This document shows, piece by piece, positions 8,310-23,253 of a stretch of DNA of 24,000 bases. Under the pieces are notes generated by a model. It made no database searches. It was not told the origin of the DNA and saw nothing but the letters and a program-made list of their open reading frames with translations. A program made the translations under genes and the position numbers. Source of the DNA: Tepidanaerobacter syntrophicus (GTDB lineage Bacteria; Bacillota; Thermosediminibacteria; Thermosediminibacterales; Tepidanaerobacteraceae); contig NZ_DF977002.1 of the NCBI RefSeq assembly GCF_001485475.2, positions 132,426 through 156,425 on the forward strand, in the 5' to 3' direction. Each line of letters begins with the position of its first letter. Position 1 is the stretch's first letter.

Positions 8310-8332
8310 ATAAAAAGCACCCTTTGGGTGCT
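8310..8332 (-). terminator. Rho-independent terminator after the ABC-2 permease gene
   Basis: Minus strand reads AGCACCC-AAA-GGGTGCT followed by TTTTAT. The 7-bp GC-rich stem (8316-8322 / 8326-8332) starts at the TGA stop. Confidence 0.6.
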
Positions 8333-9066: not shown

Positions 9067-9067
9067 T

Positions 9068-10672: not shown

Positions 10673-10972
10673 ATGACAAAAGAAGAAGTACAGCTCTTGG
10701 CTTTTAAAATCATTGCAAATGCCGGCGAAGCATTAGACTGCTTTTATAATGCTGTTTTGCTGTATAAAGGAAGCAATGAGGACGAGGCTTTGAAAAAACT
10801 AAATCGCGGTAAAGAAATTTTAAATGAGGTGCATAATTTACAAACGGAACTGATACAAGCTGAAGCAAACAATGAAGAAGTGCCATATTCCTTAATAATG
10901 ACACATGCTCAAGACCACTTAAACAGTGCTATAAATTGGGAACGCATGGCAAGTCTATTATTGAAAAATTAA
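10673..10972 (+). CDS. PTS EIIA component, lactose/cellobiose family
   Basis: 99 aa helical protein with the family's MTHAQDHL histidine motif. Perfect RBS AAGGAGG 7 nt upstream. Confidence 0.85.
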   Translation: MTKEEVQLLAFKIIANAGEALDCFYNAVLLYKGSNEDEALKKLNRGKEILNEVHNLQTELIQAEANNEEVPYSLIMTHAQDHLNSAINWERMASLLLKN

Positions 10973-12342
10973 TGGGGGGCTTGATTCACGTGAATAATTT
11001 TTTAGACAAATTCTCTTCTGTAGTAGAAAAGTATCTGTCTCCAATCACCGGAAAGGTTGCTCAAAATAAGTATCTACAAATAATTGCAACTTCATTTATG
11101 ACAATCCTTCCAATAATTTTGATAGGTTCATTTTCTCTAATATTATCAAGGCCTTTTCTTGATTATAATATGCTGGAACCAAACAGTGTTTTATACGGCT
11201 TTTTTAAGGCATGGGCACAGTTTTCTGAGGTATATGGTCCTCATTTGAGTTTCTTATTCGGTATAACATTAGGAAGCCAAGCCTTATACTTGAGTTTAGC
11301 AATAGCTTATAACACAGCGTTAAAAAATGATATGAACACATTTCTTACAATGCTTGTCGCGTTTATATCATTTCTATTGATTAATAGCCAGTATGTGCAG
11401 TGGAATTGGGATACCAGCTATTTTGGAGGAACAGGATTGTTTTCTGCCATTATTACTACGTTTGTTTCAGTAGAGCTGTATCATTGGTTTGTAAAGAAAA
11501 AACTCGGGTATATTAACTTTCCGGATACAGTGCCTGCATCATTGAGGAATTCCCTTGGAAACTTGGTTCCAATAACCCTTATATTTATAATAATGCTGTT
11601 GGGAAGAATACTGCTAGCTGAAGGTTTTAACACTTCTTTCCCTGAAATAATGATGGCAATAGGCAAGCCGCTAAACCTTGCAGTAGATACTATTTGGGGA
11701 ATCTCGCTATCTTCAACGTTTGCACAAATTGGGTGGTGGTTTGGTATTCACAGTAGTGCTATACTATCAGTTGTAATGCCGTCACTTGAGGCAAACACAC
11801 TGGAAAATGCAGCGGCGTATGCTGCGGGTGCATCGTTAAAGCAGCTGCCCAGAATAGTAACTTCACCTTTTTATTTTAATTTTGTTGCAATCGGAGGCGG
11901 AGGCGCTACTTTAGGTTTGGTGTTTTTAATGCTAAGAAGCAAGTCTAAGCAAATACAAACTATAGGCAAGCTTGCTATTGTTCCTGGAATTTTTGGAATA
12001 AACGAGCCGGTTCTCTTTGGTCTACCTATTGTTTTAAACCCTATTTTCCTTATTCCTTTTCTTTTGGCTCAAATTGTAAATATCATTTTATGCTATGTTC
12101 CTATGAGTATGGGATTAATAAATAGGACATTCGTAAATGTAAGTTCTACAGTTCCTGTAGGACTTGGGCAGTTGTTATCAAGTCTTGATTATAAATCACT
12201 GATTTTAACAGTAGTGTGTATTATAGCTGATGTAATAGTGTACTATCCCTTTTTTAAAGTTTATGAAAAACAAAAGCTGCAGGAAGAAGCAAATACGTCA
12301 AATTTAGAAGACGTAGATCTAGAAGAAATAGAAGTTTTATAA
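10972..12342 (+). CDS. PTS EIIC permease, lactose/cellobiose family
   Basis: Polytopic membrane protein with GGGGATLGL and VPGIFGINEPVLFGLPIVLNPIF motifs. ATG 10972 overlaps the EIIA stop (TAATG). GTG 10990 is an alternative start. The 10936 start in the ORF track lies inside EIIA and is unlikely. Confidence 0.9.
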   Translation: MGGLIHVNNFLDKFSSVVEKYLSPITGKVAQNKYLQIIATSFMTILPIILIGSFSLILSRPFLDYNMLEPNSVLYGFFKAWAQFSEVYGPHLSFLFGITLGSQALYLSLAIAYNTALKNDMNTFLTMLVAFISFLLINSQYVQWNWDTSYFGGTGLFSAIITTFVSVELYHWFVKKKLGYINFPDTVPASLRNSLGNLVPITLIFIIMLLGRILLAEGFNTSFPEIMMAIGKPLNLAVDTIWGISLSSTFAQIGWWFGIHSSAILSVVMPSLEANTLENAAAYAAGASLKQLPRIVTSPFYFNFVAIGGGGATLGLVFLMLRSKSKQIQTIGKLAIVPGIFGINEPVLFGLPIVLNPIFLIPFLLAQIVNIILCYVPMSMGLINRTFVNVSSTVPVGLGQLLSSLDYKSLILTVVCIIADVIVYYPFFKVYEKQKLQEEANTSNLEDVDLEEIEVL

Positions 12343-12382
12343 CTTATGCGTGTAACGTTGAAATTTGCAAGGAGGAAAAAAC

Positions 12383-12715
12383 ATGGATGTTTTGTTAGTT
12401 TGTCAGGCAGGTATGAGCACAACAATTATGTGTAAAAAAATACAAGAAGCAGCAGCAAAGATAAACGATCACATAAACATAGTTGCTGCAGGTTTGGAAT
12501 CAATTCCAAAAAGTGCTGAAAATAAGGATATTGTGTTGCTTGCGCCTCAAGTTAAGTATGCAGCCCAAAATATAAGAAAAGAAGTTGACCCGGCTATTCC
12601 AATTATGATAATCAGCCCGGAAGATTATGGGCTAATGAAAGGGGATGCAGTTTACAAAAAGATGAAAAAGGTGCTTGAGTCTAAAGCCGGTGAAAAGGGG
12701 CAAACACAGAAATGA
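12383..12715 (+). CDS. PTS EIIB component, lactose/cellobiose family
   Basis: MDVLLVCQAGMSTT active-site Cys motif. GGAGG at 12371-12375 supports ATG 12383 over TTG 12365. Confidence 0.9.
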   Translation: MDVLLVCQAGMSTTIMCKKIQEAAAKINDHINIVAAGLESIPKSAENKDIVLLAPQVKYAAQNIRKEVDPAIPIMIISPEDYGLMKGDAVYKKMKKVLESKAGEKGQTQK

Positions 12716-14190
12716 AAGTCTTAGCAGGGCATTTTAATTCAGAATCAAATGAACATGCATATCAAAAAATGGGTTTTGAGAATTTTATTTTTAAGTATGG
12801 CGAAGACTCTATAGATGCAATGGGGATAAGAGATATTTTTGAGAACAATAACATAGAAATAATCCCTAGTATTTATGCAAATGGTCATCCAGGCGGTTTA
12901 GTTACAAAAGATGCTTTTGATTTTATTCTGACGCGAATTTTGCATACTTTAAAGAAAAACCTAAGTGAAATTGATGGTATATTTCTTTATCTGCATGGCG
13001 CAAGTAAAGTAGAAGATTTGGAAGGGGATTCCGGAGAGCATAAAATATTAGAAGAAATTAGAAAAATTACCGGTCCGTATCTTCCAATCGCTGTAGTCAT
13101 GGATCCTCACGGCAATCTATCAGAGCAATTTATTGCTAATACAACAATTGTGAGATGCTACAGGCATTCGCCTCATACAGATATACTGGAAACCCACAGA
13201 AAAGTTGCAAAATTATTTGTAGATCTTTTAAAAAATAAAAGGTATCTAACGCCAGTTTATAGAAAGGTCCCTATTATCATTGGCGGCGAGAAATCTGTAT
13301 CAACAGATGAGCCTATGGTATCTATTAATAAATACCTGGATGAAGTGGAAAAGGACGAAAGAATATTATCGGCTTCATTTCATATAGGATACCTTAGGCA
13401 TGATGGGGACAAATTAGGCTGCTCTGTTGTAGTCGTTCCTTGCGATGAAAAACATAAGGAATACGCAAATGAAACTGCTGATAAAATCTATGACTTCGTT
13501 CTTGCGCGGCGATATCAATTTCACTATCATGGAATTGTAGATGAACCTGATAAAGCACTTGAAAGGGCTATTAACCATCAAGGAAGACCGGTATTTCTAA
13601 CCGACTCCGGCGATAATTGCGGAGCAGGGGCAGACGGTTACAGTAATTATGTTTTGCGACAGTGTCTTGATTTAAAAGACTACAACAATAAAACAATTCT
13701 TATAGCTGGAATAGTAGACCAACAAATATATCCTGTCTTATTGAAAAAAGATGTTGGCGAGAAAGTAGAGCTTGATTTGGGAATGGGTTTAGATAAACAA
13801 TCCACAAAGGTTCATATTAAAGGAACGGTTATTTCCAGGGGAGTTGTAGGCAAAGATTACATTAAGCGACCTGATATAGGCTCTGCTATTACTATAAAAT
13901 TAGACAACTACCCAATCAGCGTAATCGTGCTTGGTGAATCTGTAAGTTATACAGAACTGGAGCAATTCAAGTACTCAAATGTAGACATTTTGCAATATGA
14001 TGTAATCGTGGTAAAACAGGGATATATTTCTCCGGATTTTCAGGCAATAAGCCCATTTTGCATAATGTCTCTGACAGATGGACCGACAAACCAGCGAACT
14101 GAAAAATTAGTATTCAAGCGTATTAAACGCCCCATGTTCCCATATGATAATATAGATTATAGGATTGAAGAAAGTAATGTAAATTCGTGA
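12712..14190 (+). CDS. M81 family (MlrC-like) metallopeptidase
   Basis: 492 aa. The pattern LYLHGASKVEDLEGDSGEHKILEEIR...PIAVVMDPHGNLS...CYRHSPHTD...TDSGDNCGAGADG matches my recollection of DUF1485 plus MlrC_C proteins. The start overlaps the EIIB stop (ATGA 12712-12715). Confidence 0.7.
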   Translation: MKVLAGHFNSESNEHAYQKMGFENFIFKYGEDSIDAMGIRDIFENNNIEIIPSIYANGHPGGLVTKDAFDFILTRILHTLKKNLSEIDGIFLYLHGASKVEDLEGDSGEHKILEEIRKITGPYLPIAVVMDPHGNLSEQFIANTTIVRCYRHSPHTDILETHRKVAKLFVDLLKNKRYLTPVYRKVPIIIGGEKSVSTDEPMVSINKYLDEVEKDERILSASFHIGYLRHDGDKLGCSVVVVPCDEKHKEYANETADKIYDFVLARRYQFHYHGIVDEPDKALERAINHQGRPVFLTDSGDNCGAGADGYSNYVLRQCLDLKDYNNKTILIAGIVDQQIYPVLLKKDVGEKVELDLGMGLDKQSTKVHIKGTVISRGVVGKDYIKRPDIGSAITIKLDNYPISVIVLGESVSYTELEQFKYSNVDILQYDVIVVKQGYISPDFQAISPFCIMSLTDGPTNQRTEKLVFKRIKRPMFPYDNIDYRIEESNVNS

Positions 14191-14201
14191 GGAAGATTCA
14201 A

Positions 14202-16070
14202 ATGACTCTTACGGAAAGAGAAAAGAATCTATTGATTCTGTTATTGCAGCATGAAAGGTTGATATGCTCAGTTATTGCAGATCTTTTACAGGTATCTGAA
14301 AAAACTGTCAGAAATGATATTAAGAAAATCAACGCAAATTTTGGCAAGAAGCTTGTTCTTTCGTCTAGGAATGGATATTTTATAAATCCCGAGTACCGCA
14401 GTTTGCTTACAGAAGAGGTTGCAGTCCTTCCTTTTCAAAAAGAGAAAAACTTAAAGGAGATACTTCACTACTTATTTATAAACAATGGCTCTCTTTTTGA
14501 TGATGTAGCAGATAAATTTTATATCTCCTCGTCAACTCTCCAACAGCGGCTAACTGATATAAATGATATGATTAAAAGTTATTCTGTGAAATTTATTAGA
14601 AAAGATGCAAAAATATTTATCGAGGGCAGCGAGAAAGACAGACAACGGCTTCTTGCAATGTTAATCCAAGAGGAAATAAACAACAACTTCGACACAATTA
14701 ATGACCTGGAAAAGTTTTTCCCGAATATTGATGTTACATCCTTCAGGAGAGAAGTCTATCACATCATCGAAGAGGCAAATTACTATGTACCGGAATTTTA
14801 CGAGTCCAATTTATTAATTAATTTACTATCCATATTCACTTTCGACGCTAATTATCAAAATCAAAAATCTTATACCGGCAAATTAAGCAAAGATATAGAA
14901 AAGATTGCTTATAATATTGCTGACAAATTTGGCAGAAAAGACCTTCAAACTCCTATTCAAAACTCGTTGACAGGCGTTATAAAACGAAAAAAACTGTTGG
15001 CTTCTTATGATAATTTAGACGAAAAGTTTGTAAACAAGATTAAAGATATTATTTTGGATGTATTTGAAAGAAATAAGCTTAAAGTTGATTTAAAACAATT
15101 TATAAATGTTTTTTCTCTTCATATATATCAACTAATCTTGCGCTGCAGGCAGGATAAGTACATTCCTCCCCAAGCTATGTTGTCTATAAAAGATAGTTGT
15201 TTTTTTATATATGATATAGCAGTGCAAATTGCTGATAAATTATCTTCTGTCTTTCAAATTGCAATACCTGAATTTGAAATTTCTCTAATCGCGATTCATA
15301 TAGGCTTTGCAATAGAAGAGGCTACAAAACCCAAAGCAGAAAATTTGCATCTAAATATAGCCGTCTTTTTTGAAAATTATACCGTCATCGAAGAGAACTT
15401 TTTAAAAAATATAAACAAGCTAATCCCTCGCCATTCTAATTGCTTCATAGTGCGCAACGCAAAAGAACTATATGAATTAAAAAACTTTGATCTTCTCATC
15501 ACTACAAAAAATATCGATGAGCTTCTTCCATACACTATATGCAAAATAAGCCCTTTTATAAATGAAAACGACATTGCGAAAATAAAAGAGGCAATGAGTA
15601 AAATTATCAAAGAAAAAGAATTCGGCCACTTGACCGAGATGCTCTCTTATTATTTTAGTTCCGATCTCTTCCTCTACACTACTAAGATAAAAAATAGAGA
15701 AGAAGCTTTTAAGGTTATGACAAAAATTATGAAGGAAAAGGGCATAATCGATGAAAGGTTCATAACTTCATTGTATGAAAGAGAGGCGCTTTCATCTACA
15801 GGTTTTATGAATAGCTTTGCCCTCCCTCACTCCTTAGAATACAATGCAGTTTGTTCTAAAATATTCGCATTAGTAAATCCGGAATCCATAAAATGGGGAG
15901 ATGCTCAAGTAAAAATTGTATTTTTGATAGCAATAAGCAGGAAAGATAGGGAAAAAGTAAAACCGCTCTTTGATTTTTTAACTGATATTATGATTGACGA
16001 GCAAAAAATTTATAATTTAAGTAAAGCAATGAACTTTGAAAATTTTATGCAGATCTTGCTGACAAAATAA
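14202..16070 (+). CDS. PRD-domain transcriptional activator (LicR/MtlR-like: HTH, Mga-like HTH, PRD, degenerate EIIB-like, EIIA-2)
   Basis: N-terminal wHTH (LLQVSEKTVRNDIKKIN), PRD histidines (FSLHIYQLILR, LIAIHIGFAIEE) and C-terminal Mtl/Fru-type EIIA with FALPHS. ATG 14202 has GAGGAAG 6 nt upstream. GTG 14187 would overlap the peptidase stop. Confidence 0.85.
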   Translation: MTLTEREKNLLILLLQHERLICSVIADLLQVSEKTVRNDIKKINANFGKKLVLSSRNGYFINPEYRSLLTEEVAVLPFQKEKNLKEILHYLFINNGSLFDDVADKFYISSSTLQQRLTDINDMIKSYSVKFIRKDAKIFIEGSEKDRQRLLAMLIQEEINNNFDTINDLEKFFPNIDVTSFRREVYHIIEEANYYVPEFYESNLLINLLSIFTFDANYQNQKSYTGKLSKDIEKIAYNIADKFGRKDLQTPIQNSLTGVIKRKKLLASYDNLDEKFVNKIKDIILDVFERNKLKVDLKQFINVFSLHIYQLILRCRQDKYIPPQAMLSIKDSCFFIYDIAVQIADKLSSVFQIAIPEFEISLIAIHIGFAIEEATKPKAENLHLNIAVFFENYTVIEENFLKNINKLIPRHSNCFIVRNAKELYELKNFDLLITTKNIDELLPYTICKISPFINENDIAKIKEAMSKIIKEKEFGHLTEMLSYYFSSDLFLYTTKIKNREEAFKVMTKIMKEKGIIDERFITSLYEREALSSTGFMNSFALPHSLEYNAVCSKIFALVNPESIKWGDAQVKIVFLIAISRKDREKVKPLFDFLTDIMIDEQKIYNLSKAMNFENFMQILLTK

Positions 16071-16076
16071 AGGTAC

Positions 16077-16116
16077 AAATAAAAAATAAGGGAATTAAGT
16101 CTTCCCTTATTTTTTA
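16077..16116. terminator. Bidirectional rho-independent terminator shared by the two convergent PTS operons
   Basis: AATAAGGGAA (16085-16094), 7-nt loop, TTCCCTTATT (16102-16111). An A-run lies upstream and a T-run downstream, so a U-tract follows the stem on either strand. It overlaps the last codons of the minus-strand EIIA gene. Confidence 0.6.
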
Positions 16117-16427
16117 TCATCTCCCAGATACTTTTTATGAACTAATAACATCTCATTCGTAATATCTCTTAACAGTTCTGTCGACATCATTTGGTCTTCG
16201 GCATGCATCAATAAAAGAGATAACTCAATTGGCTCTTGGGTTTCCTGCTGCAGCAACTTTGCATGTATTTCATGGGCTTTTAATAGGCTTTCGTCTGCAT
16301 TTTCAATAAGTTTTTCTGCCGCTTTAAAGTCTTCATCCCTGGCAGCTTTTAAAGCTTTAAACAGAAATGATTTCGCATCTCCAACATTACTTATTATTTG
16401 AAAATTTAATAATTCCATACCTTCCAT
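16107..16427 (-). CDS. PTS EIIA component, lactose/cellobiose family
   Basis: 106 aa helical protein with the LLMHAEDQMM histidine motif. Paralog of 10673-10972. Confidence 0.85.
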   Translation of the reverse strand: MEGMELLNFQIISNVGDAKSFLFKALKAARDEDFKAAEKLIENADESLLKAHEIHAKLLQQETQEPIELSLLLMHAEDQMMSTELLRDITNEMLLVHKKYLGDDKK

Positions 16428-16458
16428 ATATCCACCGTCTTTCTATATCTGTTTTAAA

Positions 16459-17424: not shown

Positions 17425-17455
17425 ATCGCCTCCGCATCTCTTCATTGTATTTCAC

Positions 17456-18580
17456 CTATTTTGCTAAGTTATATATAGCCTGAGCAAATATCTTGCTGTT
17501 TAATATTATATCCTCTATATCCATATACTCATTTGGATTATGTGAAATTCCTTTCTGTCCAGGGAAAGAAGGTCCGAAAGGCACAATGTTAGGCATTATT
17601 TTTGCATAAGTTCCCCCTGTAGTTGTAACAGGCGTCCCATCTAATTTTGTAACCTCTTCATATGCCTTTTGCAGTGATTTAATCAAAAAAGAATTCTTGT
17701 CGAATTTAACCGGATTATAGTTTAAAAGAAGATTTAATTTTATGTTTTTCGAGAGCTTTGATTTTATTCTTTTTATTATTTCATCGATGCTTACAATCGC
17801 CGGATAGCTTAAGCTAAGATTAAACAGAAATTTGGAATCCTCGATATGAATATTATGGCCTCTCATCTCCATAACGCCAAATTCCTCATCGCTAAAATCA
17901 ATACCCAATCTGTCCCCATTGCTTTTACCGGATAGAATATAATCGTTTAAAAAGCTAAAAAGTTCATCGGCGGCGCTTTTATAGTTTTTGTCATCATAAT
18001 CTATTTCAAATTGGATATTTGCCCTTCCTCTTTCTCCATAGACAACAGGATATTTGCAATCCGGGGTAAAACCCATTATGGGAGGTTTCTCTTTTTTTAA
18101 ATAATATCTAACATCATCAAATCCGCTTTCTTCATCGGTGCCGAATACAATTCTGACTGGTTTACTCAATTTTAGCCGACATTCTTTAATGGCGTATAAA
18201 GCATACAGCGCAGCTAAAATAGGTCCTTTGTTATCTAATACGCCTCTGCCGTATATTTTCCCATCTTCAATGTGTCCGCTAAAAGGAGGAAACTTCCATC
18301 CTTCTCCTGCCGGCACTACATCTAGATGCCCTACAACCCCTATATATTCCTTGCCATCTCCGTACTGAGCATATCCAATGTAATTATCTAGATTATTTGT
18401 TTTAAAGCCTAAATTCTCTGCTATATCCAATGTCACAAATAGAGCTTTTTTTATCTCGTTTCCAAAGGGAGCATTATCCTTTGGTTCATCTTTGATGCTG
18501 GGTATATTGACCACTTCTATTATAGACTTTAATAATTCTTCCTTATGTTCATCAATTTTATTATTTAAATCCTGTTCCAT
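17456..18580 (-). CDS. M20A family dipeptidase, PepV/Sapep-like with a short lid domain
   Basis: GVVGHLDVVPAGEGW, GRGVLDNKGP, FGTDEESG, GFTPDCKYPVVYGERG and C-terminal TTGGTYAK...SHNPNEYM. At 374 aa it is about 90 aa shorter than my recollection of PepV (~470 aa). Confidence 0.85.
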   Translation of the reverse strand: MEQDLNNKIDEHKEELLKSIIEVVNIPSIKDEPKDNAPFGNEIKKALFVTLDIAENLGFKTNNLDNYIGYAQYGDGKEYIGVVGHLDVVPAGEGWKFPPFSGHIEDGKIYGRGVLDNKGPILAALYALYAIKECRLKLSKPVRIVFGTDEESGFDDVRYYLKKEKPPIMGFTPDCKYPVVYGERGRANIQFEIDYDDKNYKSAADELFSFLNDYILSGKSNGDRLGIDFSDEEFGVMEMRGHNIHIEDSKFLFNLSLSYPAIVSIDEIIKRIKSKLSKNIKLNLLLNYNPVKFDKNSFLIKSLQKAYEEVTKLDGTPVTTTGGTYAKIMPNIVPFGPSFPGQKGISHNPNEYMDIEDIILNSKIFAQAIYNLAK

Positions 18581-18608
18581 TTTTAAGTCTCCATCGTAAA
18601 AGTTGAGA

Positions 18609-18639
18609 TATGAGGTAGCCTTTGCAGAGCTACCTCATA
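18609..18639 (-). other. Strong intercistronic RNA hairpin (11-bp perfect stem), function unknown (SECIS-like or stability element)
   Basis: Minus strand reads TATGAGGTAGC-UCUGCAAAG-GCTACCTCATA. The loop can add C-G and U-A pairs, leaving a bulged U and a GCAA tetraloop. No U-tract follows. Confidence 0.8.
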
Positions 18640-18646
18640 AATATCT

Positions 18647-19168
18647 TCAATAGCATATTTTCTTTGCCAGTTCCTCTATGTCCTTTTTATCAAACATTTT
18701 TCGTGCTAATACGCAGATATTATTTAATGATTCACTTAATCCTATGCCTCCCTTTTTGGGCATCTTAACAATATGCAGCGCATCCTTGTATTCTGAAATA
18801 ATATCTTCGTTTTCCTTTGACATAGCGGCTACAACCGGTATATCTGTTTTGTCTTTTAAGTTTTTACCAATAACGGCACACATATATGCATATCCTTTGT
18901 AGTTATACGCAGGTCCGCAGATAACTACATCAGGATTTATTTTTTTCACCATAGCAGTCATTTTTTTAGTTACTACTTCTTCGTTTTCTTTAAAATAATC
19001 ATTGCCGCAATACAAGCAAGCTACGATTTCACCATCTACATTTTTAAGATGAGGCTCGATCATGGGAGCCGAACCTATTGATCCTTTTTTACCTCCCGGA
19101 GGAAGATCCGATCTTTCCTTGCCTCCCATTCCTGCTTGTATTTGGTCAAATATCATCAAAACCTTCAT
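18647..19168 (-). CDS. GrdB N-terminal-domain-like protein (glycine/sarcosine/betaine reductase component B family, short form)
   Basis: 173 aa. IFDQIQAGMGGKE, CGNDYF and ICGPAYNYKGYAYMCAVIG parallel the N-terminal NQFF.GIGGEEKA / CGD.YF / AGPAFNAGRYG pattern that I recall for GrdB. It contains a CLYC (CxxC) motif. It lacks the C-terminal two-thirds of GrdB and ends ...KKICY-TGA. Confidence 0.55.
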   Translation of the reverse strand: MKVLMIFDQIQAGMGGKERSDLPPGGKKGSIGSAPMIEPHLKNVDGEIVACLYCGNDYFKENEEVVTKKMTAMVKKINPDVVICGPAYNYKGYAYMCAVIGKNLKDKTDIPVVAAMSKENEDIISEYKDALHIVKMPKKGGIGLSESLNNICVLARKMFDKKDIEELAKKICY

Positions 19169-19230
19169 ATTAACCTTTTAACCTCCAGTTTACTGCCGTC
19201 GCCGGCAACTGACCTTATCGTATCGCAATC

Positions 19231-20577
19231 TTAAATATCATCTAAAGATAAATCGTCAAACGAAATATCCTCTAACTCATCTTCTTCGCTCTGATTCTCT
19301 TCGTCTTTTAGGTAACTCTTATCGAGTATCTTTATGAACGGGTAATATACGAAGCAGCCTAAAATCAGTAATAGAACTTGGAATGCCGATGCTTTTAAAC
19401 TGCCTGTCGACAAATATCCCGAAAAGCCCAAGGGTGTTGTCCACGGCAGCGAAACACCATTAGTATAAGGCAAAAATCCTGTTTCAAAGGCTATTGCCGA
19501 TAAAATTGTATTCATCAAAGGTACCCCTATAAAAGGTATAATCATTACAGGATTTAGCACGATTGGCAAACCAAATATAATAGGTTCATTAATTCCAAAA
19601 ATACCCGGTACAATCGACAATTTTCCTAATTGTTTAATCCTTTCTGATTTACAAACTGTCACCATAAGAATAACCAAAGAAAGGGTGCTTCCGCCGCCTC
19701 CAAATGTTTGAAAGAGATCAACAAATTGCCCTGTGTATATATGAGGTAATGGCAGTCCCGCTTCAAAAGCTGCTAAGTTTTCCATTGATAAAGTTCTAAA
19801 TATTGGCGAAAAAACTGAATTTGCCACTGCAGGTCCGTTTATTCCAAAGAACCAGAAAACAGAGCATGATACAACATATACAATTTGTGCTCCTAAACTG
19901 TTCCCAACTCCCATTAGCGGAGCTTGCAGCACAGTATATATGAAATTATGCGCAGATTCATATGGAGTAAGCTCAAACCCGATTCTTACCAAGAAAAATA
20001 CAAACATTACTAGAAAACTTGGTATTAAAGCTGCAAATGAATCAAAAACAGCAGGCGGTACTCCATGGGGAAGTTTTATAGTCCAGCCCTTTTTGTATCC
20101 CCAGTTGAATATTCGAACTGATAAAATCGAAACGAGCATTGCCAAAAATATTCCATTTGTTCCTATATAGGAGAAGCCTATAGCCCTTACAAAAGATGGC
20201 CCTTCTACGCCTTCATATGGAATTGCCGTAGGCATTAAGATTATAAAAGATACCAGTGAAACAATTGCTCCTTGTATTTTGTCTGCTCCTATTTCTCTAG
20301 CATAAGCATATCCTATGCCCACTACTGTTAATATTGATATGATATCAAAAGTCGCTCGTGCAACGTTAGAAAAGTATGATTCCCAACCTACTCCAAATAT
20401 TTTTGCCCAAAACTCTGACCAGCCCGGCACTGGAAAGTTTGCAAATAATATAAACATAGAACCGACAATGATTACCGGAGTGGAAATTAGAAATCCATCA
20501 CGTATAGCAACTAAAATCTTGTTTTTGCCCAGCATATCCGCAATAGGCATTAGAGCTTTTTCTAGCTTATTAAGCAT
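19231..20577 (-). CDS. PTS EIIC permease, lactose/cellobiose family
   Basis: 448 aa polytopic protein with GGGGSTLSL and VPGIFGINEPIIFGLPIVLNPVM motifs and an acidic C-terminal tail. Paralog of 10972-12342. RBS GAGGGGAG. Confidence 0.9.
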   Translation of the reverse strand: MLNKLEKALMPIADMLGKNKILVAIRDGFLISTPVIIVGSMFILFANFPVPGWSEFWAKIFGVGWESYFSNVARATFDIISILTVVGIGYAYAREIGADKIQGAIVSLVSFIILMPTAIPYEGVEGPSFVRAIGFSYIGTNGIFLAMLVSILSVRIFNWGYKKGWTIKLPHGVPPAVFDSFAALIPSFLVMFVFFLVRIGFELTPYESAHNFIYTVLQAPLMGVGNSLGAQIVYVVSCSVFWFFGINGPAVANSVFSPIFRTLSMENLAAFEAGLPLPHIYTGQFVDLFQTFGGGGSTLSLVILMVTVCKSERIKQLGKLSIVPGIFGINEPIIFGLPIVLNPVMIIPFIGVPLMNTILSAIAFETGFLPYTNGVSLPWTTPLGFSGYLSTGSLKASAFQVLLLILGCFVYYPFIKILDKSYLKDEENQSEEDELEDISFDDLSLDDI

Positions 20578-20579
20578 TG

Positions 20580-20912
20580 TTATTCTCCCCTCTTTTTATG
20601 ATTTTTCATAAGTAATATTGCTTTCTTTAAAACTCTCTCTCCATCCATCATCCCATAATCAGCGGAATCAATAACTCCAACCGGAACATTATAGTTTTCT
20701 AACCTTTTTTTGGTATCATCGAATAAATGGCTGACTTGAGGACCCAGCAAAATACAATCGGGATTCTTTTCTTCCATAATTTTTTCTAAAGTTTTAATTG
20801 AATGAGCCTTTACTTCTAGGGGTAAATTGTGTTTTTCCCCTATATCTTGCATCCTTTTAGCAAGCATGCTTGTGCTCATTCCTTGATCGCAAAATAGATA
20901 AATCTTTTTCAT
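20580..20912 (-). CDS. PTS EIIB component, lactose/cellobiose family
   Basis: MKKIYLFCDQGMSTS active-site Cys motif. RBS AGAGGTGA. Two nucleotides separate it from EIIC. Confidence 0.9.
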   Translation of the reverse strand: MKKIYLFCDQGMSTSMLAKRMQDIGEKHNLPLEVKAHSIKTLEKIMEEKNPDCILLGPQVSHLFDDTKKRLENYNVPVGVIDSADYGMMDGERVLKKAILLMKNHKKRGE

Positions 20913-20975
20913 TTATATTCACCTCTATCATTGTTTTAATCATATTAATTGCAATTATTGGTGGTCTTTTTGTGC

Positions 20976-21455
20976 TTAAAACTTGGATTTAGTATGTGCA
21001 TAATTGCAAATCAGTCGGGCTATTTCTTTCTTTGTATCAGCATCTAACAACTTCTTTACGGCTTCTACATCTCCTAATGAAGAAAACAGCTGTCCTATCA
21101 TCTTCAATCCTTGCCCCATTTCATCGCCTTCGGGAATAACAAACATAATAATAAGCTTCACTAAATTTCCTTTTTCATCCCAAACAATAGAATCCTTTGT
21201 TTTTAAGACAACTGCCGCTGTTCTAACTACATGTTTGGACCAGCCGTGAGGAATCGCCAAATAATCTCCTGCAAAGGTGAAACCTCTACTTTCTCTTTCG
21301 TATATATCTTTTAAAAAACCTGGTTTATCCGAAACAGCTCCCAGCTCTACCAGTAATTCCGCAAGTTTATCTATGGCTTCTTCCTTGGAACTTACATTAC
21401 AGTCTATAAGAATATTGTCCTCAGTGATTAAACCTTTATTTTTCATATTGCCCAT
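20976..21455 (-). CDS. Stand-alone PTS EIIA-2 (mannitol/fructose/Ntr type) protein
   Basis: 159 aa with the DYLAIPHG phosphohistidine motif and a complete domain length. ATG 21446 is an alternative start (AAGGA 8 nt upstream). It overlaps the regulator stop by 20 nt, or by 11 nt from the alternative start. Confidence 0.85.
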   Translation of the reverse strand: MGNMKNKGLITEDNILIDCNVSSKEEAIDKLAELLVELGAVSDKPGFLKDIYERESRGFTFAGDYLAIPHGWSKHVVRTAAVVLKTKDSIVWDEKGNLVKLIIMFVIPEGDEMGQGLKMIGQLFSSLGDVEAVKKLLDADTKKEIARLICNYAHTKSKF

Positions 21456-23253
21456 CCTTATTCAATCCTTCTCTTATCAAAAGTCTTATAAGATTTGATA
21501 AATAAGTATAATTAGAATAGTTGATGGCAATTATATATCTTTCTGCGCCTTTTTTCTTGATTGAATATCTCTTAACCGAGTTTTCTTTTTCCGCCTTAAG
21601 GTATAAATAGATATTGTCTTTGATACGGATTAGCCCATCTTCAATAAATAAGCTTTTAATCTCCCCTATCTCCTTTGTTTCATCGATAAACTTTAAAGAA
21701 ATGTCTTCACACTCTAAGGAAGAAGATTTTCTCTTATTTTCTAGTATATTCTCTATATAAATTTTTACATTTTCTTTATCTATCTCATTCAAAAAAGCCG
21801 ATACCATTAAATAAGGTTTATTTATATCCAAATCTACTGTGGAAATTATCAAATCTACTTTTTCTAAATCTGCATTGTTAATCGCATTAGATGAAATTAT
21901 CCCTGAAATTTCGATATTGCTGAAGGTCTTTGCCAATCTTGTAGCCAATAATCTGCTGGTGCCATAGCCGCTATGGCATATTACTACTGTTCGTACCTTT
22001 ATGGCACTGGCCATTTTTTCATTTTCGGAAATAAAATAGGATAGAATATATGCCACTTCATGATCGTTTATCATATTTACTCCGTATCTGTTGCAGAGTA
22101 AAAAGCAGCCAACTTTTACTATAAAAAATTCTTCTTTAAATTCTCTTAAGAAATCATCCAATAAAGGATTTGTAATTTGAATATTGTATTTTGCCCTGTT
22201 GAGCATAGGTCTTACATGCAGCAATAATTTATCGTATAAATCAAGGCTTAGATCGTAATTGACATTTAGCATTTGAGATATAATGCTTATTAAATCCTTG
22301 GTAAAATATACATAAGATAAATCAGATTCTTTAATGCATTTTTTATCATCTTCAAAACTTAGTCCGACAGATATTAGATATTTATACACATAAACAATTT
22401 CTTGTTTGTTAATCTTGATATCAAATTTCTTTTCTATTTCCTTGATCAAATATACGGCAGCGTCATACAGTCTTTCGTTTATTGCTAGCGTTGAATTATT
22501 GTAATCTGGATTATCTTCAATATAATTTCCATTGATTATCCTATTAGTCATAATAGCTAAATGGCTCAGCAGATTGGTGTAATAGGGTTCATAGATTACC
22601 AGCTTCAATTCATTTTCTAGGTGGTTTAGCAGCTCTTCGAAAAAGGAGAGAGATTCATCGCTTAAAATAGTATTAATTTCGGCGATATTAAGTTCCTTGT
22701 GTCGAATATTTTGATATTCGGATATATAGCTAGGATTGATTTTGGCATACTCTTGAATAGTCGAAACCAAGGCTTTTCTAATGTTTATTTCGCTGCCAAT
22801 TATTCTGGTTCCCTTCAAGGTTTTTGAAAGCTGCAAGTTGTACCTATCTAATCTTTTTTGAACCTCTTTTAAATCGTTATTAATGGAGGTCCTGCTGACC
22901 ATATATTTATCTGAAAGTTTCTGTATTGTGGTGTACTTGTTTGTATTTATAAGTAGATTTAACAGGATTTCGGTTCTTCTGTCTTCTACAGCCTTATCGC
23001 CGTCAAGAAGTGATATATCATTCAATATTTCGTTTAGTTTATCTAGTTGAGGCAAGGCATAGCATAACTTAATTCCCCTGCCTTGTTTCCTCTCTATTTT
23101 GACACCGATGGGATTTATTATTTCCTCAATATCATCAAGGTCCTTTGATATTGTTTTCACCGATGTCCCAAATATATTAGAAAAATATCTTATTGGCTGA
23201 TAATCATCTTGAATTATTAGTTTTTTTAGTAAATCTACTTGTCGTTTATTCAT
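21436..23253 (-). CDS. PRD-domain transcriptional activator (HTH, Mga-like HTH, PRD1, PRD2, EIIB-Gat-like) lacking an EIIA domain
   Basis: 605 aa. wHTH (FGTSVKTISKDLDDIEE), PRD histidines (LLSHLAIMTNR, LLLHVRPMLNR) and EIIB-like RTVVICHSGYGTS. The last ~95 aa contain no histidine. Confidence 0.85.
   Translation of the reverse strand: MNKRQVDLLKKLIIQDDYQPIRYFSNIFGTSVKTISKDLDDIEEIINPIGVKIERKQGRGIKLCYALPQLDKLNEILNDISLLDGDKAVEDRRTEILLNLLINTNKYTTIQKLSDKYMVSRTSINNDLKEVQKRLDRYNLQLSKTLKGTRIIGSEINIRKALVSTIQEYAKINPSYISEYQNIRHKELNIAEINTILSDESLSFFEELLNHLENELKLVIYEPYYTNLLSHLAIMTNRIINGNYIEDNPDYNNSTLAINERLYDAAVYLIKEIEKKFDIKINKQEIVYVYKYLISVGLSFEDDKKCIKESDLSYVYFTKDLISIISQMLNVNYDLSLDLYDKLLLHVRPMLNRAKYNIQITNPLLDDFLREFKEEFFIVKVGCFLLCNRYGVNMINDHEVAYILSYFISENEKMASAIKVRTVVICHSGYGTSRLLATRLAKTFSNIEISGIISSNAINNADLEKVDLIISTVDLDINKPYLMVSAFLNEIDKENVKIYIENILENKRKSSSLECEDISLKFIDETKEIGEIKSLFIEDGLIRIKDNIYLYLKAEKENSVKRYSIKKKGAERYIIAINYSNYTYLSNLIRLLIREGLNKDGQYEK

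What the first reader, a model, noticed from the sequence alone, without database searches (positions are those of the whole stretch)
10673..23253. Twin convergent Lac/cellobiose-family PTS operons whose only enzymes are peptidases or amidohydrolases
Seen: two paralogous EIIA/EIIB/EIIC(Lac) sets, each with its own PRD activator, converge on one shared terminator. The cargo genes are an M81/MlrC-like peptidase, a PepV-like M20 dipeptidase, a glycosylasparaginase-like Ntn hydrolase and a GrdB-N-like protein. The window contains no 6-phospho-beta-glucosidase or galactosidase, no other glycoside hydrolase, no sugar kinase, and no NagA or NagB. Established: Lac-family PTS operons (cellobiose, chitobiose, lactose) normally carry a phospho-glycosidase. 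MlrC, PepV and asparaginase_2 enzymes all act on unusual amide bonds: iso-, beta- or gamma-linked peptides, and the GlcNAc-Asn amide. Inference: this is a PTS-dependent route for glyco-amino acids, glycopeptides or iso-peptide conjugates. Possible substrates are GlcNAc-Asn from N-glycoprotein breakdown and muropeptide-like fragments. In that route the phosphorylated conjugate would be cleaved at the amide rather than the glycosidic bond. I am not aware of such a pathway being described.
Basis: partly seen in the sequence, partly recalled or inferred. Interest (0 to 1): 0.75.

Follow-up and report, generated by a model that had tools for sequence, protein, structure and literature searches.

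The report
GlcNAc-asparagine PTS locus plus M81 module
Two back-to-back sugar-import operons carry amide-cleaving enzymes instead of glycosidases: one matches the Enterococcus system for eating GlcNAc-asparagine left over from glycoproteins, and the other is an undescribed companion built around an M81 metallopeptidase.

Summary

The functional guess is largely right, but the novelty claim is wrong for the minus-strand operon. That operon (EIIB, EIIC, GrdB-like, short PepV-like M20, glycosylasparaginase, EIIA) has the same gene set as the Enterococcus faecalis ega locus. The ega locus is a Lac/cellobiose-family PTS for GlcNAc-L-Asn (Combret et al. 2023). The operon is kept intact in Tissierellales relatives. 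It differs from ega in having its own EIIA and a PRD activator with a detached EIIA2, rather than a GntR regulator.

The plus-strand operon (EIIA, EIIC, EIIB, M81, PRD activator) is not described in the searched literature. Its EIIC and M81 form their own lineages and are syntenic in Enterococcus and Erysipelotrichaceae. In Holdemanella, Faecalitalea, Longicatena and Bulleidia the closest M81 relatives lie inside ega-like islands with M42, M19, M3 and M20 peptidases and CutC. In Bacillaceae-type genomes they lie next to alpha-L-fucosidase.

My best reading is a two-module route for N-glycoprotein stubs, in which M81 trims glycopeptides to GlcNAc(6-P)-Asn. I class it as a new variant of a known kind, of moderate interest.

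The parts
10673..10972 (+). EIIA, lactose/cellobiose type (operon 1)
   Evidence: PF02255 hit at 9.7e-24. The THAQDH histidine motif is present. It is 50-59% identical to the EIIA of M81-linked operons in Enterococcus and Erysipelotrichaceae.
10990..12342 (+). EIIC, Lac family, M81-linked lineage
   Evidence: It passes the TIGR00410 lacE subfamily model (284 bits, cut-off 236) but falls below all the cellobiose, chitobiose and lactose equivalog cut-offs. It is 56-77% identical to the EIIC that precedes M81 in L017, L026 and L064, and only 31% identical to the other EIIC in the window. The start at 10990 follows the gene calls on identical metagenome contigs.
12383..12715 (+). EIIB, Lac type (operon 1)
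   Evidence: PF02302 hit. The active-site Cys lies in LVCQAGMST. Its stop overlaps the M81 start codon by 4 nt.
12712..14190 (+). M81 (MlrC-like) metallopeptidase, cytoplasmic; the only enzyme of operon 1
   Evidence: PF07364 hit at 2.2e-72 and PF07171 hit at 7e-34. The MlrC Zn ligands His150, Asp184, His186 and His208 align with the invariant residues H95, D131, H133 and H155. It is not microcystinase: NF041767 scores 75 bits against a cut-off of 999. It sits in a clade of 21 loci, of which 16 carry a Lac-type PTS and 8 carry a glycosylasparaginase.
14202..16070 (+). PRD-containing transcriptional activator with a fused EIIA2 domain (MtlR/LicR type), last gene of operon 1
   Evidence: HTH_11, Mga, PRD and PTS_EIIA_2 domains. 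An ALPHS histidine is present. Homologues 31-32% identical lie divergently upstream of M81-PTS operons in L026 and L064.
16079..16117 (.). Shared bidirectional intrinsic terminator
   Evidence: A 16-17 bp perfect stem with a 7-nt loop and U-tracts on both strands. Folding energy is -16.7 and -18.7 kcal/mol, z = -5.0 and -5.6. It overlaps the stop codon of the minus-strand EIIA gene.
16107..16427 (-). EIIA, Lac type (operon 2)
   Evidence: PF02255 hit at 1.8e-29. An MHAEDQ histidine is present. It is 81-89% identical to the gene in the same position in the Tissierellales loci L091 and L092.
16459..17421 (-). [quoted passage not shown]
   Evidence: PF01112 hit at 4.7e-65. The best PDB match is Flavobacterium glycosylasparaginase (219 bits), against 132 bits for isoaspartyl peptidases. 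The HDT autocleavage site (T151) and W9, T169, R179, D182, T202 and G203 align with the residues I recall as the Flavobacterium enzyme's active site. It is 56-59% identical to the ega-type enzymes of E. raffinosus and L. curvatus. Close relatives are named this way by NCBI.
17456..18580 (-). PepV/Sapep-type M20 dipeptidase, short-lid variant
   Evidence: It passes the TIGR01887 Sapep subfamily model (376 bits, cut-off 208). It aligns to PepV 1LFW residues 9-202 and 313-466, so it lacks about 110 lid residues. The alignment-invariant motifs include the GHLDVV, DNKG, DEE, PD and H-N-x-x-E positions that I assign to the PepV metal ligands from memory. It has a 60-aa deletion relative to the Lactobacillales ega dipeptidases, and this deletion is shared with Tissierellales and Erysipelotrichaceae.
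18647..19168 (-). GrdB-related protein without selenocysteine (the 'putative oxidoreductase' of ega loci); function unknown
   Evidence: It passes the NF041545 equivalog model (262 bits, cut-off 175). The same family sits between the regulator and EIIC in L. curvatus and after EIIC in L019, L023 and L091. E. faecalis ega has a GrdB-related gene.
19231..20577 (-). EIIC, Lac family, ega-type lineage
   Evidence: TIGR00410 scores 412 bits; the protein falls below the cellobiose equivalog cut-off of 434. It is 52-54% identical to the EIIC of the E. raffinosus and L. curvatus glycosylasparaginase loci, 61% to Holdemanella and 78-90% to Tissierellales.
20580..20912 (-). EIIB, Lac type (operon 2)
   Evidence: PF02302 hit at 1.2e-16. 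The active-site Cys lies in LFCDQGMST.
20976..21455 (-). Stand-alone Fru/Mtl-type EIIA2, probably the detached regulatory domain of the adjacent activator
   Evidence: PF00359 hit at 2.3e-31. It is below all transporter equivalog cut-offs. It overlaps the regulator gene by 20 nt. The same split (a regulator of 598-602 aa plus an EIIA2 of 153 aa) is conserved in L091 and L092, so it is not a frameshift artefact. An IPHG histidine is present.
21436..23253 (-). PRD-containing activator (HTH, Mga, two PRDs, EIIB-like domain), first gene of operon 2
   Evidence: Pfam domains as listed. It is 67-69% identical to the regulator that heads the same operon in L091 and L092. A Cys lies in ICHSGYGTS.

Best explanation
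The two operons form a two-module, PTS-dependent salvage route for the GlcNAc-asparagine stubs left after N-glycoproteins are broken down.

**Module 2 (minus strand)** is an ega-type system.
- The Lac-family EIIA/EIIB/EIIC imports GlcNAc-L-Asn and phosphorylates it, presumably on the sugar O6. This is inferred from the known chemistry of the PTS.
- The cytoplasmic glycosylasparaginase cleaves the beta-aspartyl-glucosylamine amide. The products are L-aspartate and GlcNAc-6-P (through the 1-amino sugar) plus ammonia.
- This explains why no glycosidase or sugar kinase is needed. NagA and NagB would be supplied from elsewhere in the genome.
[quoted passage not shown] The short-lid PepV-type dipeptidase probably removes a residue still attached to the glycosylated Asn.
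- The role of the GrdB-like protein is unknown.

**Module 1 (plus strand)** is a second, distantly related Lac-family PTS.
- I propose that it imports a slightly larger or different conjugate of the same kind, namely a GlcNAc-Asn di- or tripeptide.
- M81 would cut the peptide bond next to the bulky glycosylated residue. This parallels MlrC, which releases the bulky N-terminal Adda residue. The product would feed module 2.

**Regulation.** Each module is switched on by its own PRD-type activator. By analogy with MtlR and LicR, the activity of these regulators is set by phosphorylation from HPr and from the cognate EII components. In module 2 the EIIA2 regulatory domain is a separate polypeptide.

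**Shown versus inferred.** Shown here: gene content, family membership, conserved catalytic and phosphorylation residues, and conserved synteny. Shown elsewhere: PTS-dependent GlcNAc-Asn use by the Enterococcus locus. Inferred: the substrate of module 1, the site of phosphorylation, the order of the steps and the regulatory logic.
For: **Module 2**
- It has the same component set as the E. faecalis ega locus: dipeptidase, EgaG, Lac/Cel EIIB and EIIC, and a GrdB-related gene. That PTS is reported to transport GlcNAc-L-Asn.
- The E. raffinosus locus with the same order, GntR / Sapep / glycosylasparaginase / EIIB / EIIC / EIIA, is 42-56% identical protein by protein.
- L. curvatus carries glycosylasparaginase, GntR, GrdB-family protein, EIIC and Sapep together.
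- The active site is of the glycosylasparaginase type.
- The whole operon is conserved in Tissierellales at 67-90% identity.

**Module 1**
- The order EIIA / EIIC / EIIB / M81 recurs in Enterococcus (L007-L009, L016, L017, L053) and in Erysipelotrichaceae, Anaerorhabdus and Breznakia (L026, L063, L064, L073). The EIIC in these loci is orthologous, at 56-77% identity.
- The nearest M81 relatives, at 55-60% identity, lie inside ega-like islands. The Holdemanella example reads REG / RDD / EIIC / GrdB-like / M42 / M42 / M81 / (M19, M3) / EIIA / EIIB / glycosylasparaginase / M20 / CutC / M3.
- In Oceanobacillus, Virgibacillus and Alkalibacterium the M81 gene is next to alpha-L-fucosidase, with an Opp or sugar ABC importer, a ROK kinase and CutC. 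This mirrors the non-PTS L. casei alf-2 route for fucosyl-GlcNAc-Asn.
- Clade statistics for the 21 loci: 16 have a Lac-type PTS, 8 a glycosylasparaginase, 9 an M20 and 8 a CutC.
- The Zn ligands of M81 are conserved. MlrC cleaves after a bulky N-terminal residue.
- Becerra et al. state that glycosylasparaginase needs free alpha groups, and they propose PepV trimming of glycopeptides.
Against: - No experiment bears on this organism, and no substrate is known for any Firmicute M81 enzyme.
- The E. faecalis proteins themselves could not be retrieved, so orthology to the characterised locus rests on E. raffinosus and on published descriptions.
- In the closest Tissierellales relatives the ega-type operon stands without an M81 operon. 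The two modules are therefore separable.
- Most M81 paralogues outside the window's clade sit with Glc-family PTS genes and GH1 phospho-beta-glucosidases. M81 may therefore act on other sugar conjugates.
- PepV was dispensable for growth on the free glyco-amino acid in L. casei.
- Whether the glycosylasparaginase accepts the 6-phosphorylated substrate was not verifiable from the texts I could reach.
Confidence: 0.6

Rival explanations
1. Module 2 is an ega-type GlcNAc-Asn system, but module 1 is functionally independent. It would import some other sugar-amide conjugate, for example a glycated or glucosylated amino acid or peptide, a muropeptide-like fragment or an N-acyl amino sugar. M81 would act as a phospho-conjugate amidohydrolase. 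The two operons would be neighbours by chance.
For: - M81 paralogues are widely attached to a different PTS family, in operons of the form BglG or RpiR / EIIBC-Glc / M81 / M24-like / GH1 / EIIA-Glc. This holds for 39 of 78 loci, which shows that M81 is not tied to N-glycan genes in general.
- Tissierellales relatives keep operon 2 without operon 1.
- In the Enterococcus loci (L007-L009, L016, L017, L053) the M81-PTS operon has no glycosylasparaginase within 10 kb.
- The two PTS sets are only 30-33% identical.
Against: - The window's M81 clusters with the ega-island and fucosidase-linked M81s, not with the Glc-PTS-linked ones.
- Eight independent genomes place this M81 clade in one island with glycosylasparaginase, M20 and GrdB-like genes.
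- E. raffinosus carries both modules, at separate sites and seen in different strains' records.
- There is no MurQ, MupG or amidase signature in the window.
Confidence: 0.27
2. Both operons are ordinary cellobiose or chitobiose PTS operons. Their phospho-glycosidase would be encoded elsewhere, and the peptidase and amidohydrolase genes would be unrelated passengers.
For: Both EIIC proteins match the Lac/cellobiose subfamily model TIGR00410. EIIC-2 comes close to the cellobiose equivalog cut-off, with 412 bits against 434. E. faecalis CelA1 serves both the cellobiose and the GlcNAc-Asn transporters, which shows that the components cross-talk.
Against: - Neither EIIC reaches any equivalog cut-off for a specific sugar.
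- Each EIIC lineage is co-inherited with its enzyme across orders.
- Gene overlaps and spacing indicate co-transcription.
- The homologous Enterococcus PTS is reported as the GlcNAc-L-Asn transporter.
Confidence: 0.05
3. The locus salvages isoaspartyl or beta-aspartyl peptides. The Asparaginase_2 protein would act as an isoaspartyl peptidase, with PepV and M81 as dipeptidases for unusual linkages.
For: Asparaginase_2 includes the isoaspartyl peptidases, and the NF007589 beta-aspartyl-peptidase model gives a partial hit of 127 bits. From general knowledge, PepV-type enzymes accept unusual dipeptides.
Against: - The NF007589 score is far below its cut-off of 567.
- The protein is much closer to glycosylasparaginase than to isoaspartyl peptidases, at 219 versus 132 bits.
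- A PTS phosphorylates a hydroxyl group on a sugar, and plain peptides are not known PTS substrates.
- Close relatives are annotated as glycosylasparaginase.
Confidence: 0.03

Closest known systems
Enterococcus faecalis ega locus (enterococcal glycosylasparaginase locus; Combret et al. 2023/2024, Res Microbiol 175:104169)
   Same: - It has a Lac/cellobiose-family EIIB and EIIC, the glycosylasparaginase EgaG, an M20 dipeptidase and a GrdB-related 'putative oxidoreductase' in one locus.
- It carries out PTS-dependent use of GlcNAc-L-Asn and has no glycosidase.
- Window operon 2 has every one of these parts. It is 42-56% identical to the E. raffinosus version, which has the same gene order.
   Different: - The regulator is a PRD-type activator with a detached EIIA2, rather than a GntR repressor of the LSA1692 subfamily.
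- Operon 2 has its own Lac-type EIIA, whereas E. faecalis borrows CelA1.
- All the genes appear to form one transcription unit, rather than two promoters.
- The dipeptidase lacks 60 aa of the lid.
- A second PTS operon with M81 sits tail to tail. I found no description of ega that mentions such an operon.
Lacticaseibacillus casei/paracasei alf-2 cluster (Becerra et al. 2020, PMC6960285)
   Same: The glycosylasparaginase AsnA2 and a PepV-type M20 peptidase are genetically linked for catabolism of the N-glycan core glyco-amino acid. PepV is proposed to trim glycopeptides down to GlcNAc-Asn.
   Different: alf-2 uses an MFS permease (AlfH), the alpha-L-fucosidase AlfC, the ROK kinase SugK and AsdA, with a GntR regulator. 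It has no PTS, so a kinase is required. None of those genes is in the window.
Ega-like 'glycopeptide islands' of Erysipelotrichaceae (Holdemanella, Faecalitalea, Longicatena, Bulleidia; unpublished as far as I could find)
   Same: These islands hold the same M81 clade (55-60% identity) together with an ega-type EIIC, a GrdB-like protein, the short-lid M20, a glycosylasparaginase and a PRD activator.
   Different: There everything lies in one island served by a single EIIC. The island also carries extra peptidases (two M42, M19, two M3) and CutC. In the window the M81 gene has its own complete PTS and its own regulator.
Microcystinase MlrC (M81 type enzyme; PDB 7YLQ)
   Same: It has the same two-domain architecture (DUF1485 + MlrC_C) and the same Zn ligands. 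It is a cytoplasmic metallopeptidase that cuts next to a bulky non-standard residue.
   Different: The match is remote (phmmer E = 1.6e-15, 60 bits). The window protein is far below the MlrC naming cut-off. There are no mlrA, mlrB or mlrD neighbours, and the transporter partner is a PTS rather than a PTR2 peptide permease.
PRD-containing activators of the MtlR/LicR/ManR type
   Same: Both regulators have HTH and Mga DNA-binding domains, PRDs and EIIB-like or EIIA2 domains, and they sit beside the PTS genes they presumably control.
   Different: Regulator 2 has its EIIA2 domain as a separate gene, and this split is conserved in relatives. Only one PRD of regulator 1 passes Pfam thresholds. The phosphorylation logic is untested.

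Membership tests
ega-type GlcNAc-Asn PTS locus | Cytoplasmic glycosylasparaginase (EgaG/AsnA2) with an aspartylglucosaminidase-type active site | tested here: met
   PF01112. The score is 219 bits against Flavobacterium glycosylasparaginase and 132 bits against isoaspartyl peptidases. The HDT site and W9, T169, R179, D182, T202 and G203 are conserved. No signal peptide is visible in the sequence.
ega-type GlcNAc-Asn PTS locus | Lac/cellobiose-family EIIB and EIIC in the same locus, orthologous to the Enterococcus ones | tested here: met
   Pfam and NCBIfam hits. EIIC-2 is 52% and EIIB-2 45% identical to the E. raffinosus locus. EIIC-1 does not match that locus better. The E. faecalis proteins themselves were not retrieved.
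ega-type GlcNAc-Asn PTS locus | Adjacent M20 (Sapep/PepV) dipeptidase | tested here: met
   TIGR01887 scores 376 bits against a cut-off of 208. The protein is 42% identical to the E. raffinosus dipeptidase. It is a short-lid variant.
ega-type GlcNAc-Asn PTS locus | GrdB-related 'putative oxidoreductase' gene | tested here: met
   The NF041545 equivalog scores 262 bits against a cut-off of 175. The E. faecalis description cites the GrdB paper. The protein is 41% identical to the L. curvatus copy.
ega-type GlcNAc-Asn PTS locus | GntR-family regulator (EgaR; LSA1692 subfamily) | tested here: not met
   No GntR gene lies in 10673-23253. Two PRD-type activators are present instead. E. raffinosus and L. 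curvatus have GntR.
ega-type GlcNAc-Asn PTS locus | PTS-dependent growth on GlcNAc-L-Asn | not testable with these tools
   Needs culture or heterologous expression.
Sugar-specific Lac-family PTS operons (cellobiose, chitobiose, lactose) | EIIC reaches the equivalog score for a named sugar | tested here: not met
   For EIIC-1, the scores are 284, 216 and 136 bits against cut-offs of 434, 614 and 760. For EIIC-2, they are 412, 216 and 203 bits against the same cut-offs.
Sugar-specific Lac-family PTS operons (cellobiose, chitobiose, lactose) | Phospho-glycosidase (GH1, GH4 or GH170) in the operon | tested here: not met
   No glycoside hydrolase domain occurs in any ORF of 80 aa or more in the window.
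Peptidase family M81 (MlrC) | DUF1485 N-domain plus MlrC_C domain, with the Zn-binding His/Asp/His/His residues | tested here: met
   PF07364 and PF07171. H95, D131, H133 and H155 align with MlrC His150, Asp184, His186 and His208.
Peptidase family M81 (MlrC) | Microcystinase proper (NCBIfam exception model, mlr cluster context) | tested here: not met
   NF041767 scores 75 bits against a cut-off of 999. The neighbours are PTS genes.
PRD-containing PTS-controlled activators (MtlR/LicR type) | HTH/Mga DNA-binding part, PRD(s), EIIB-like and EIIA2 domains with phosphorylatable residues | tested here: met
   Domains as listed. Cys and His motifs are present. The EIIA2 of regulator 2 is a separate ORF, and this is conserved. 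Phosphorylation control was not tested.
L. casei alf-2 fucosyl-GlcNAc-Asn cluster | AlfH permease, AlfC alpha-L-fucosidase, SugK kinase and AsdA | tested here: not met
   None of these families is in the window. Only the AsnA2/PepV pair is shared.
Isoaspartyl peptidase / plant-type asparaginase (IaaA) | Equivalog-level match to beta-aspartyl-peptidase | tested here: not met
   NF007589 scores 127 bits against a cut-off of 567. It ranks below glycosylasparaginase in the PDB search.

The most novel reading that the evidence does not exclude
The M81 'peptidases' of Firmicutes may be a family of PTS cargo enzymes, that is, amidohydrolases that work on sugar-phosphorylated glycopeptides or other sugar-amide conjugates.

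The window's operon 1 is the minimal form: a complete Lac-family PTS, its own PRD activator, and M81 as the sole enzyme. If this is right, PTS transporters take up short glycopeptides and not only the single glyco-amino acid GlcNAc-Asn. It would also give a rationale for the peptidase genes (M81, M42, M24-like, M19, M3) that recur in PTS operons. From my own knowledge, these include the long-unexplained frvX, ypdE/ypdF and sgcX genes of E. coli.
Probability: 0.35. Interest if true: 0.7.

Novelty: new variant of a known kind. Interest (0 to 1): 0.5.

Why it matters
**Ecology.** GlcNAc-Asn and short N-glycopeptides are what remains after host or dietary glycoproteins have been stripped by endoglycosidases and proteases. 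A dedicated import route gives anaerobes carbon, nitrogen and an energy-cheap phosphorylated sugar. In E. faecalis the homologous locus matters during infection.

**What the window adds.** The system extends well beyond Lactobacillales, into Tissierellales-like and Erysipelotrichaceae genomes, and it can run under PRD-type regulation. It can also be paired with a second PTS whose only enzyme is an M81 metallopeptidase.

**What follows if the M81 idea holds.** If M81 trims phosphorylated glycopeptides, the PTS substrate range would widen to glycopeptides. A physiological role would be assigned to a large peptidase family whose only studied member is microcystinase. The result would also offer a testable explanation for peptidase genes in PTS operons.

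Tried and rejected
- **Direct comparison with E. faecalis EgaG.** The Combret 2023 paper is not held. A protein search seeded with the E. raffinosus enzyme listed many Enterococcus species, but E. faecalis was not in the top 120. The protein searches were then exhausted, so I relied on published descriptions and on the E. raffinosus and L. curvatus loci.
- **Structure of the GrdB-like protein.** AlphaFold on the single sequence gave pLDDT 52, which is unusable, so no fold search was run. A PDB sequence search found nothing.
- **Catabolite-responsive element.** One 1-mismatch hit lies inside the regulator gene, no more than chance would give. Rejected.
- **Shared operator-like repeats in the two promoter regions.** Only AT-rich chance repeats were found.
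- **Structured RNA leaders and tRNAs.** None found.
- **M81 on Firmicute plasmids.** Only proteobacterial hits under 30% identity.
- **Literature link between M81/DUF1485 and PTS, or between CutC and N-glycan catabolism.** None found in the library.
- **Split regulator/EIIA2 as a frameshift artefact.** Rejected, because the split is conserved in L091 and L092.
- **Short M20 as a pseudogene.** Rejected, because the same length recurs in Tissierellales and Erysipelotrichaceae and the invariant motifs I take to be the catalytic residues are intact.
- **Sigma-54 promoter upstream of operon 1 (TGGCA at 10570).** Rejected by eye, because there is no -12 GC element and no sigma-54-type activator.

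Full report
**1. What is in the sequence**

The interval 10673-23253 holds thirteen tightly packed genes in two convergent units (ORFs; Pfam; NCBIfam).

Unit 1, on the plus strand:
- EIIA-Lac, 10673-10972
- EIIC, 10990-12342
- EIIB-Lac, 12383-12715
- an M81/MlrC-like metallopeptidase, 12712-14190, which overlaps EIIB by 4 nt
- an HTH/Mga/PRD/EIIA2 regulator, 14202-16070

Unit 2, on the minus strand:
- an HTH/Mga/PRD/PRD/EIIB-like regulator, 23253-21436
- a stand-alone Fru/Mtl-type EIIA2, 21455-20976
- EIIB-Lac, 20912-20580
- EIIC, 20577-19231
- a GrdB-related protein without selenocysteine, 19168-18647
- a PepV/Sapep-type M20 dipeptidase, 18580-17456
- an Asparaginase_2 protein, 17421-16459
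- EIIA-Lac, 16427-16107

The start codons for EIIC-1, EIIB-1, regulator 1 and the asparaginase follow the gene calls on identical metagenome contigs.

The units meet at a perfect 16-17 bp hairpin, 16079-16117, with U-tracts on both strands. Its folding energy is -16.7 and -18.7 kcal/mol, z = -5.0 and -5.6. The phosphorylation-site His and Cys residues of all the EIIA, EIIB and regulator domains are present.

The rest of the window is a GGDEF protein, a type I restriction-modification system, an ArsR regulator with an ABC-2 exporter, and QueD. It has no glycoside hydrolase, sugar kinase, NagA or NagB.

The two PTS sets are old paralogues, 30-33% identical, and not a recent duplication. The two regulators do not detectably match each other.

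**2. Unit 2 is an ega-type GlcNAc-Asn system**

The Asparaginase_2 protein is much closer to Flavobacterium glycosylasparaginase (219 bits) than to isoaspartyl peptidases or plant-type asparaginases (132 bits or less). It keeps the HDT autoprocessing site. It also keeps the Trp, Thr, Arg, Asp, Thr and Gly residues that I recall as lining the active site of that enzyme (residue roles are from established knowledge of the Flavobacterium enzyme). Its close relatives, at 82-85% identity, are in Tissierellales, and NCBI names them N(4)-(beta-N-acetylglucosaminyl)-L-asparaginase.

The literature search showed that a PTS route for this substrate is already published. Combret et al. (Res Microbiol 175:104169, PMID 37977353) described the E. 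faecalis 'ega' locus. I could not open that paper, but two open papers describe it.
- PMC11549559 says the locus encodes EgaG (a glycosylasparaginase), the EIIB and EIIC of a lactose/cellobiose PTS, a gene for a putative oxidoreductase, a GntR regulator and a dipeptidase. For the oxidoreductase it cites the GrdB paper of Wagner et al. 1999.
- PMC11976118 calls it 'the GlcNAc-L-Asn PTS' and says it uses the shared EIIA CelA1.

Unit 2 contains every non-regulatory part of that list.
- An E. raffinosus megaplasmid carries GntR (LSA1692 subfamily) / Sapep dipeptidase / glycosylasparaginase / EIIB / EIIC / EIIA. The window proteins are 42-56% identical to these, and EIIC-2, not EIIC-1, is the match.
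- L. curvatus carries glycosylasparaginase / GntR / GrdB-family protein / EIIC / Sapep.
- Becerra et al. (PMC6960285) had already noted the AsnA2-PepV linkage. They pointed out that glycosylasparaginases need free alpha-amino and alpha-carboxyl groups, and they proposed that PepV trims glycopeptides.

In two Tissierellales-type loci (L091, L092) the whole of unit 2 is conserved at 67-90% identity, including the regulator/EIIA2 split and the 374-376-aa dipeptidase.

The absence of a glycosidase and a kinase is therefore expected. The aglycone bond is an amide, and the PTS delivers the sugar already phosphorylated.

**3. How unit 2 differs from ega**

- The regulator is a PRD-type activator, not a GntR protein.
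- The regulator's EIIA2 domain is a separate, overlapping gene. This is conserved in relatives, so it is not an artefact.
- The operon has its own Lac-type EIIA.
- The dipeptidase lacks PepV residues of about 203-312. Relative to the Lactobacillales ega dipeptidases it lacks 60 aa, while the alignment-invariant motifs are retained; I assign these to the PepV metal ligands from memory. The same short lid occurs in Erysipelotrichaceae. A smaller lid could make room for a glycosylated side chain, but that is speculation.

**4. Unit 1 and the M81 enzyme**

The M81 protein has both family domains and aligns with the Zn ligands reported for MlrC. His150, Asp184, His186 and His208 align with the invariant residues H95, D131, H133 and H155. 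It is only remotely related to microcystinase (75 bits against a naming cut-off of 999).

A scan of one genome per GTDB species with an M81 alignment returned 78 loci. I annotated these with window proteins, clustering and Pfam. Three patterns emerged.

(a) The order EIIA / EIIC / EIIB / M81 recurs, usually with a divergent PRD activator.
- It is found in Enterococcus devriesei, E. raffinosus, E. canis and a multi-species Enterococcus protein.
- It is also found in uncultured Erysipelotrichaceae, Anaerorhabdus and Breznakia.
- Some loci carry DUF1177 or an MFS transporter plus CutC as extras.
- The EIIC in these loci is 56-77% identical to EIIC-1, so this is a co-inherited EIIC/M81 lineage.

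(b) The nearest M81 relatives from cultured or named genomes that carry a PTS lie inside ega-like islands.
- These are Holdemanella, Faecalitalea, Longicatena, Bulleidia and an Erysipelotrichaceae isolate, at 55-60% identity.
- In Holdemanella the order is PRD regulator / RDD / ega-type EIIC / GrdB-like / M42 / M42 / M81 / (M19 and M3 on the other strand) / EIIA / EIIB / glycosylasparaginase / short M20 / CutC / M3.

(c) The very closest M81 sequences are in Virgibacillus and Oceanobacillus (65-70%), with Alkalibacterium at 56%.
- There the gene sits beside alpha-L-fucosidase, with Opp-type or sugar ABC importers and a sulfatase.
- One locus has an L-asparaginase II gene, and one has ROK / M17 / CutC.
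- This looks like a non-PTS counterpart of the L. casei fucosyl-GlcNAc-Asn route.

In a neighbour-joining tree the window protein falls in a 21-locus clade made of exactly these three contexts. Of the 21, 16 have a Lac-type PTS, 8 a glycosylasparaginase, 9 an M20 and 8 a CutC. The tree is crude, but the identity ranking agrees with it.

**5. Mechanism proposed**

Unit 2 takes up GlcNAc-Asn and phosphorylates it. The glycosylasparaginase releases aspartate and, through the unstable 1-amino sugar, GlcNAc-6-P and ammonia. The M20 enzyme removes a residual neighbouring amino acid.

Unit 1 takes up a related conjugate, most plausibly a GlcNAc-Asn di- or tripeptide. M81 hydrolyses the peptide bond beside the bulky glycosylated residue. 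MlrC is the precedent, because it releases the bulky N-terminal Adda residue. The product then enters unit 2's pathway.

By analogy with MtlR and LicR, each PRD activator senses its own transporter's phosphorylation state. All of the enzymes lack obvious signal peptides, which fits processing after uptake.

I put about 0.85 on the unit 2 assignment, about 0.45 on the specific unit 1 substrate, and 0.6 on the combined statement.

**6. Rivals**

- **Independent module (0.27).** Unit 1 may serve an unrelated sugar-amide conjugate. Outside the window's clade, M81 paralogues (up to six in tandem) sit in operons of the form BglG or RpiR / EIIBC (Glc family) / M81 / M24-like / GH1 / EIIA-Glc / HAD. 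This is so in 39 of 78 loci. Tissierellales relatives also have unit 2 alone.
- **Plain cellobiose or chitobiose transport (0.05).** Lineage-specific co-inheritance of each EIIC with its enzyme argues against this.
- **Isoaspartyl-peptide salvage (0.03).** The score gap between glycosylasparaginase and isoaspartyl peptidase matches argues against this.

**7. Novelty and verdict**

I found no paper that links M81/DUF1485 to a PTS. The conserved M81-PTS synteny, and its embedding in multi-peptidase ega-like islands, is the new element.

Taken together I rate the locus a new variant of a known kind, with interest 0.5. Its best hits point to Tissierellales.

**8. Limits**

- The E. faecalis sequences were not retrieved.
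- The GrdB-like fold could not be modelled.
- No regulatory sites were identified.
- All functional statements for this organism are inferences.

Noticed in passing
L025-L088 (e.g. L057:7000-17200, L065, L072, L034, L044): M81 paralogues, from one to six in tandem, sit in operons of the form BglG or RpiR / EIIBC (Glc/Bgl family) / M81 / M24-like 464-aa protein / GH1 / EIIA-Glc / Cof-type HAD phosphatase / AEC or AbrB-family membrane protein. This holds for 39 of 78 loci. PTS genes lie within 7 kb of M81 in 56 of 78 loci. It is unexplained what PTS substrate would need both a metallopeptidase-like enzyme and a phospho-beta-glucosidase.
   Followed up: partly
L019:3226-19699 (Holdemanella); similar in L014, L015, L018, L020, L022, L023, L013: These ega-like islands carry up to seven peptidase genes (two M42, M81, M19, two M3, M20) around one Lac-family PTS and a glycosylasparaginase. 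This suggests glycopeptide catabolism rather than glyco-amino-acid catabolism alone.
   Followed up: partly
L019:17060-17803, L026:12578-13336, L091:11359-12105, L010:12906-13631: A CutC-family gene recurs at the 3' end of ega-like and M81 operons in four different orders. I found no literature that links CutC to N-glycan catabolism.
   Followed up: partly
L018:5194-6288: A MupG-type (6-phospho-N-acetylmuramidase, GH170-like) gene lies between the glycosylasparaginase and EIIB in a Longicatena ega-like island. It may be a 6-phospho-chitobiosyl-Asn hydrolase. The window has no counterpart.
   Followed up: no
window 20976-21455 and 21436-23253; L091:3651-5922; L092:4787-7056: The PRD activator of the ega-type operon has its EIIA2 domain as a separate gene. 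In the window the two genes overlap by 20 nt, and the split is conserved across Tissierellales-type loci.
   Followed up: partly
window 17456-18580; alignment A3: The ega-associated PepV/Sapep dipeptidase has a 60-aa lid deletion in Tissierellales and Erysipelotrichaceae relative to the Lactobacillales versions. Relative to PepV it lacks about 110 aa. The invariant motifs that I take to be the catalytic residues are kept.
   Followed up: partly
L016:8330-9676 and L017:8421-9676: In E. devriesei DSM 22802 and E. raffinosus N17 the M81-linked EIIC is split into two ORFs. In other Enterococcus assemblies (L007-L009) it is intact at 448 aa. This may be pseudogenisation or an assembly error.
   Followed up: no
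L019:5203-5787, L060:13492-14889, L091:5932-6507: Small RDD-family membrane proteins are interleaved with the PTS genes of ega-like operons in relatives. The window has none.
   Followed up: no
L063, L064 and L073, between EIIB and M81 (e.g. L064:8335-10000): A DUF1177 protein and a 230-244-aa protein with no Pfam match are inserted between EIIB and M81 in Anaerorhabdus, Breznakia and Erysipelotrichaceae versions of operon 1.
   Followed up: no
window 871-8244: This is a type I restriction-modification system (HsdR, HsdS, HsdM) with a DUF5655 gene between hsdR and hsdS. On an otherwise matching metagenome contig the HsdS, HsdM and DUF5655 products have different lengths: 431 vs 445 aa, 672 vs 702 aa, and 302 vs 307 aa. 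This indicates strain-level variation in the restriction-modification system.
   Followed up: no
window 42-719, 8332-10442, 23457-23813: The flanking genes are unrelated to the finding. They are a GGDEF diguanylate cyclase, an ArsR-family regulator with an ABC-2 exporter pair, and a QueD/PTPS homologue.
   Followed up: yes
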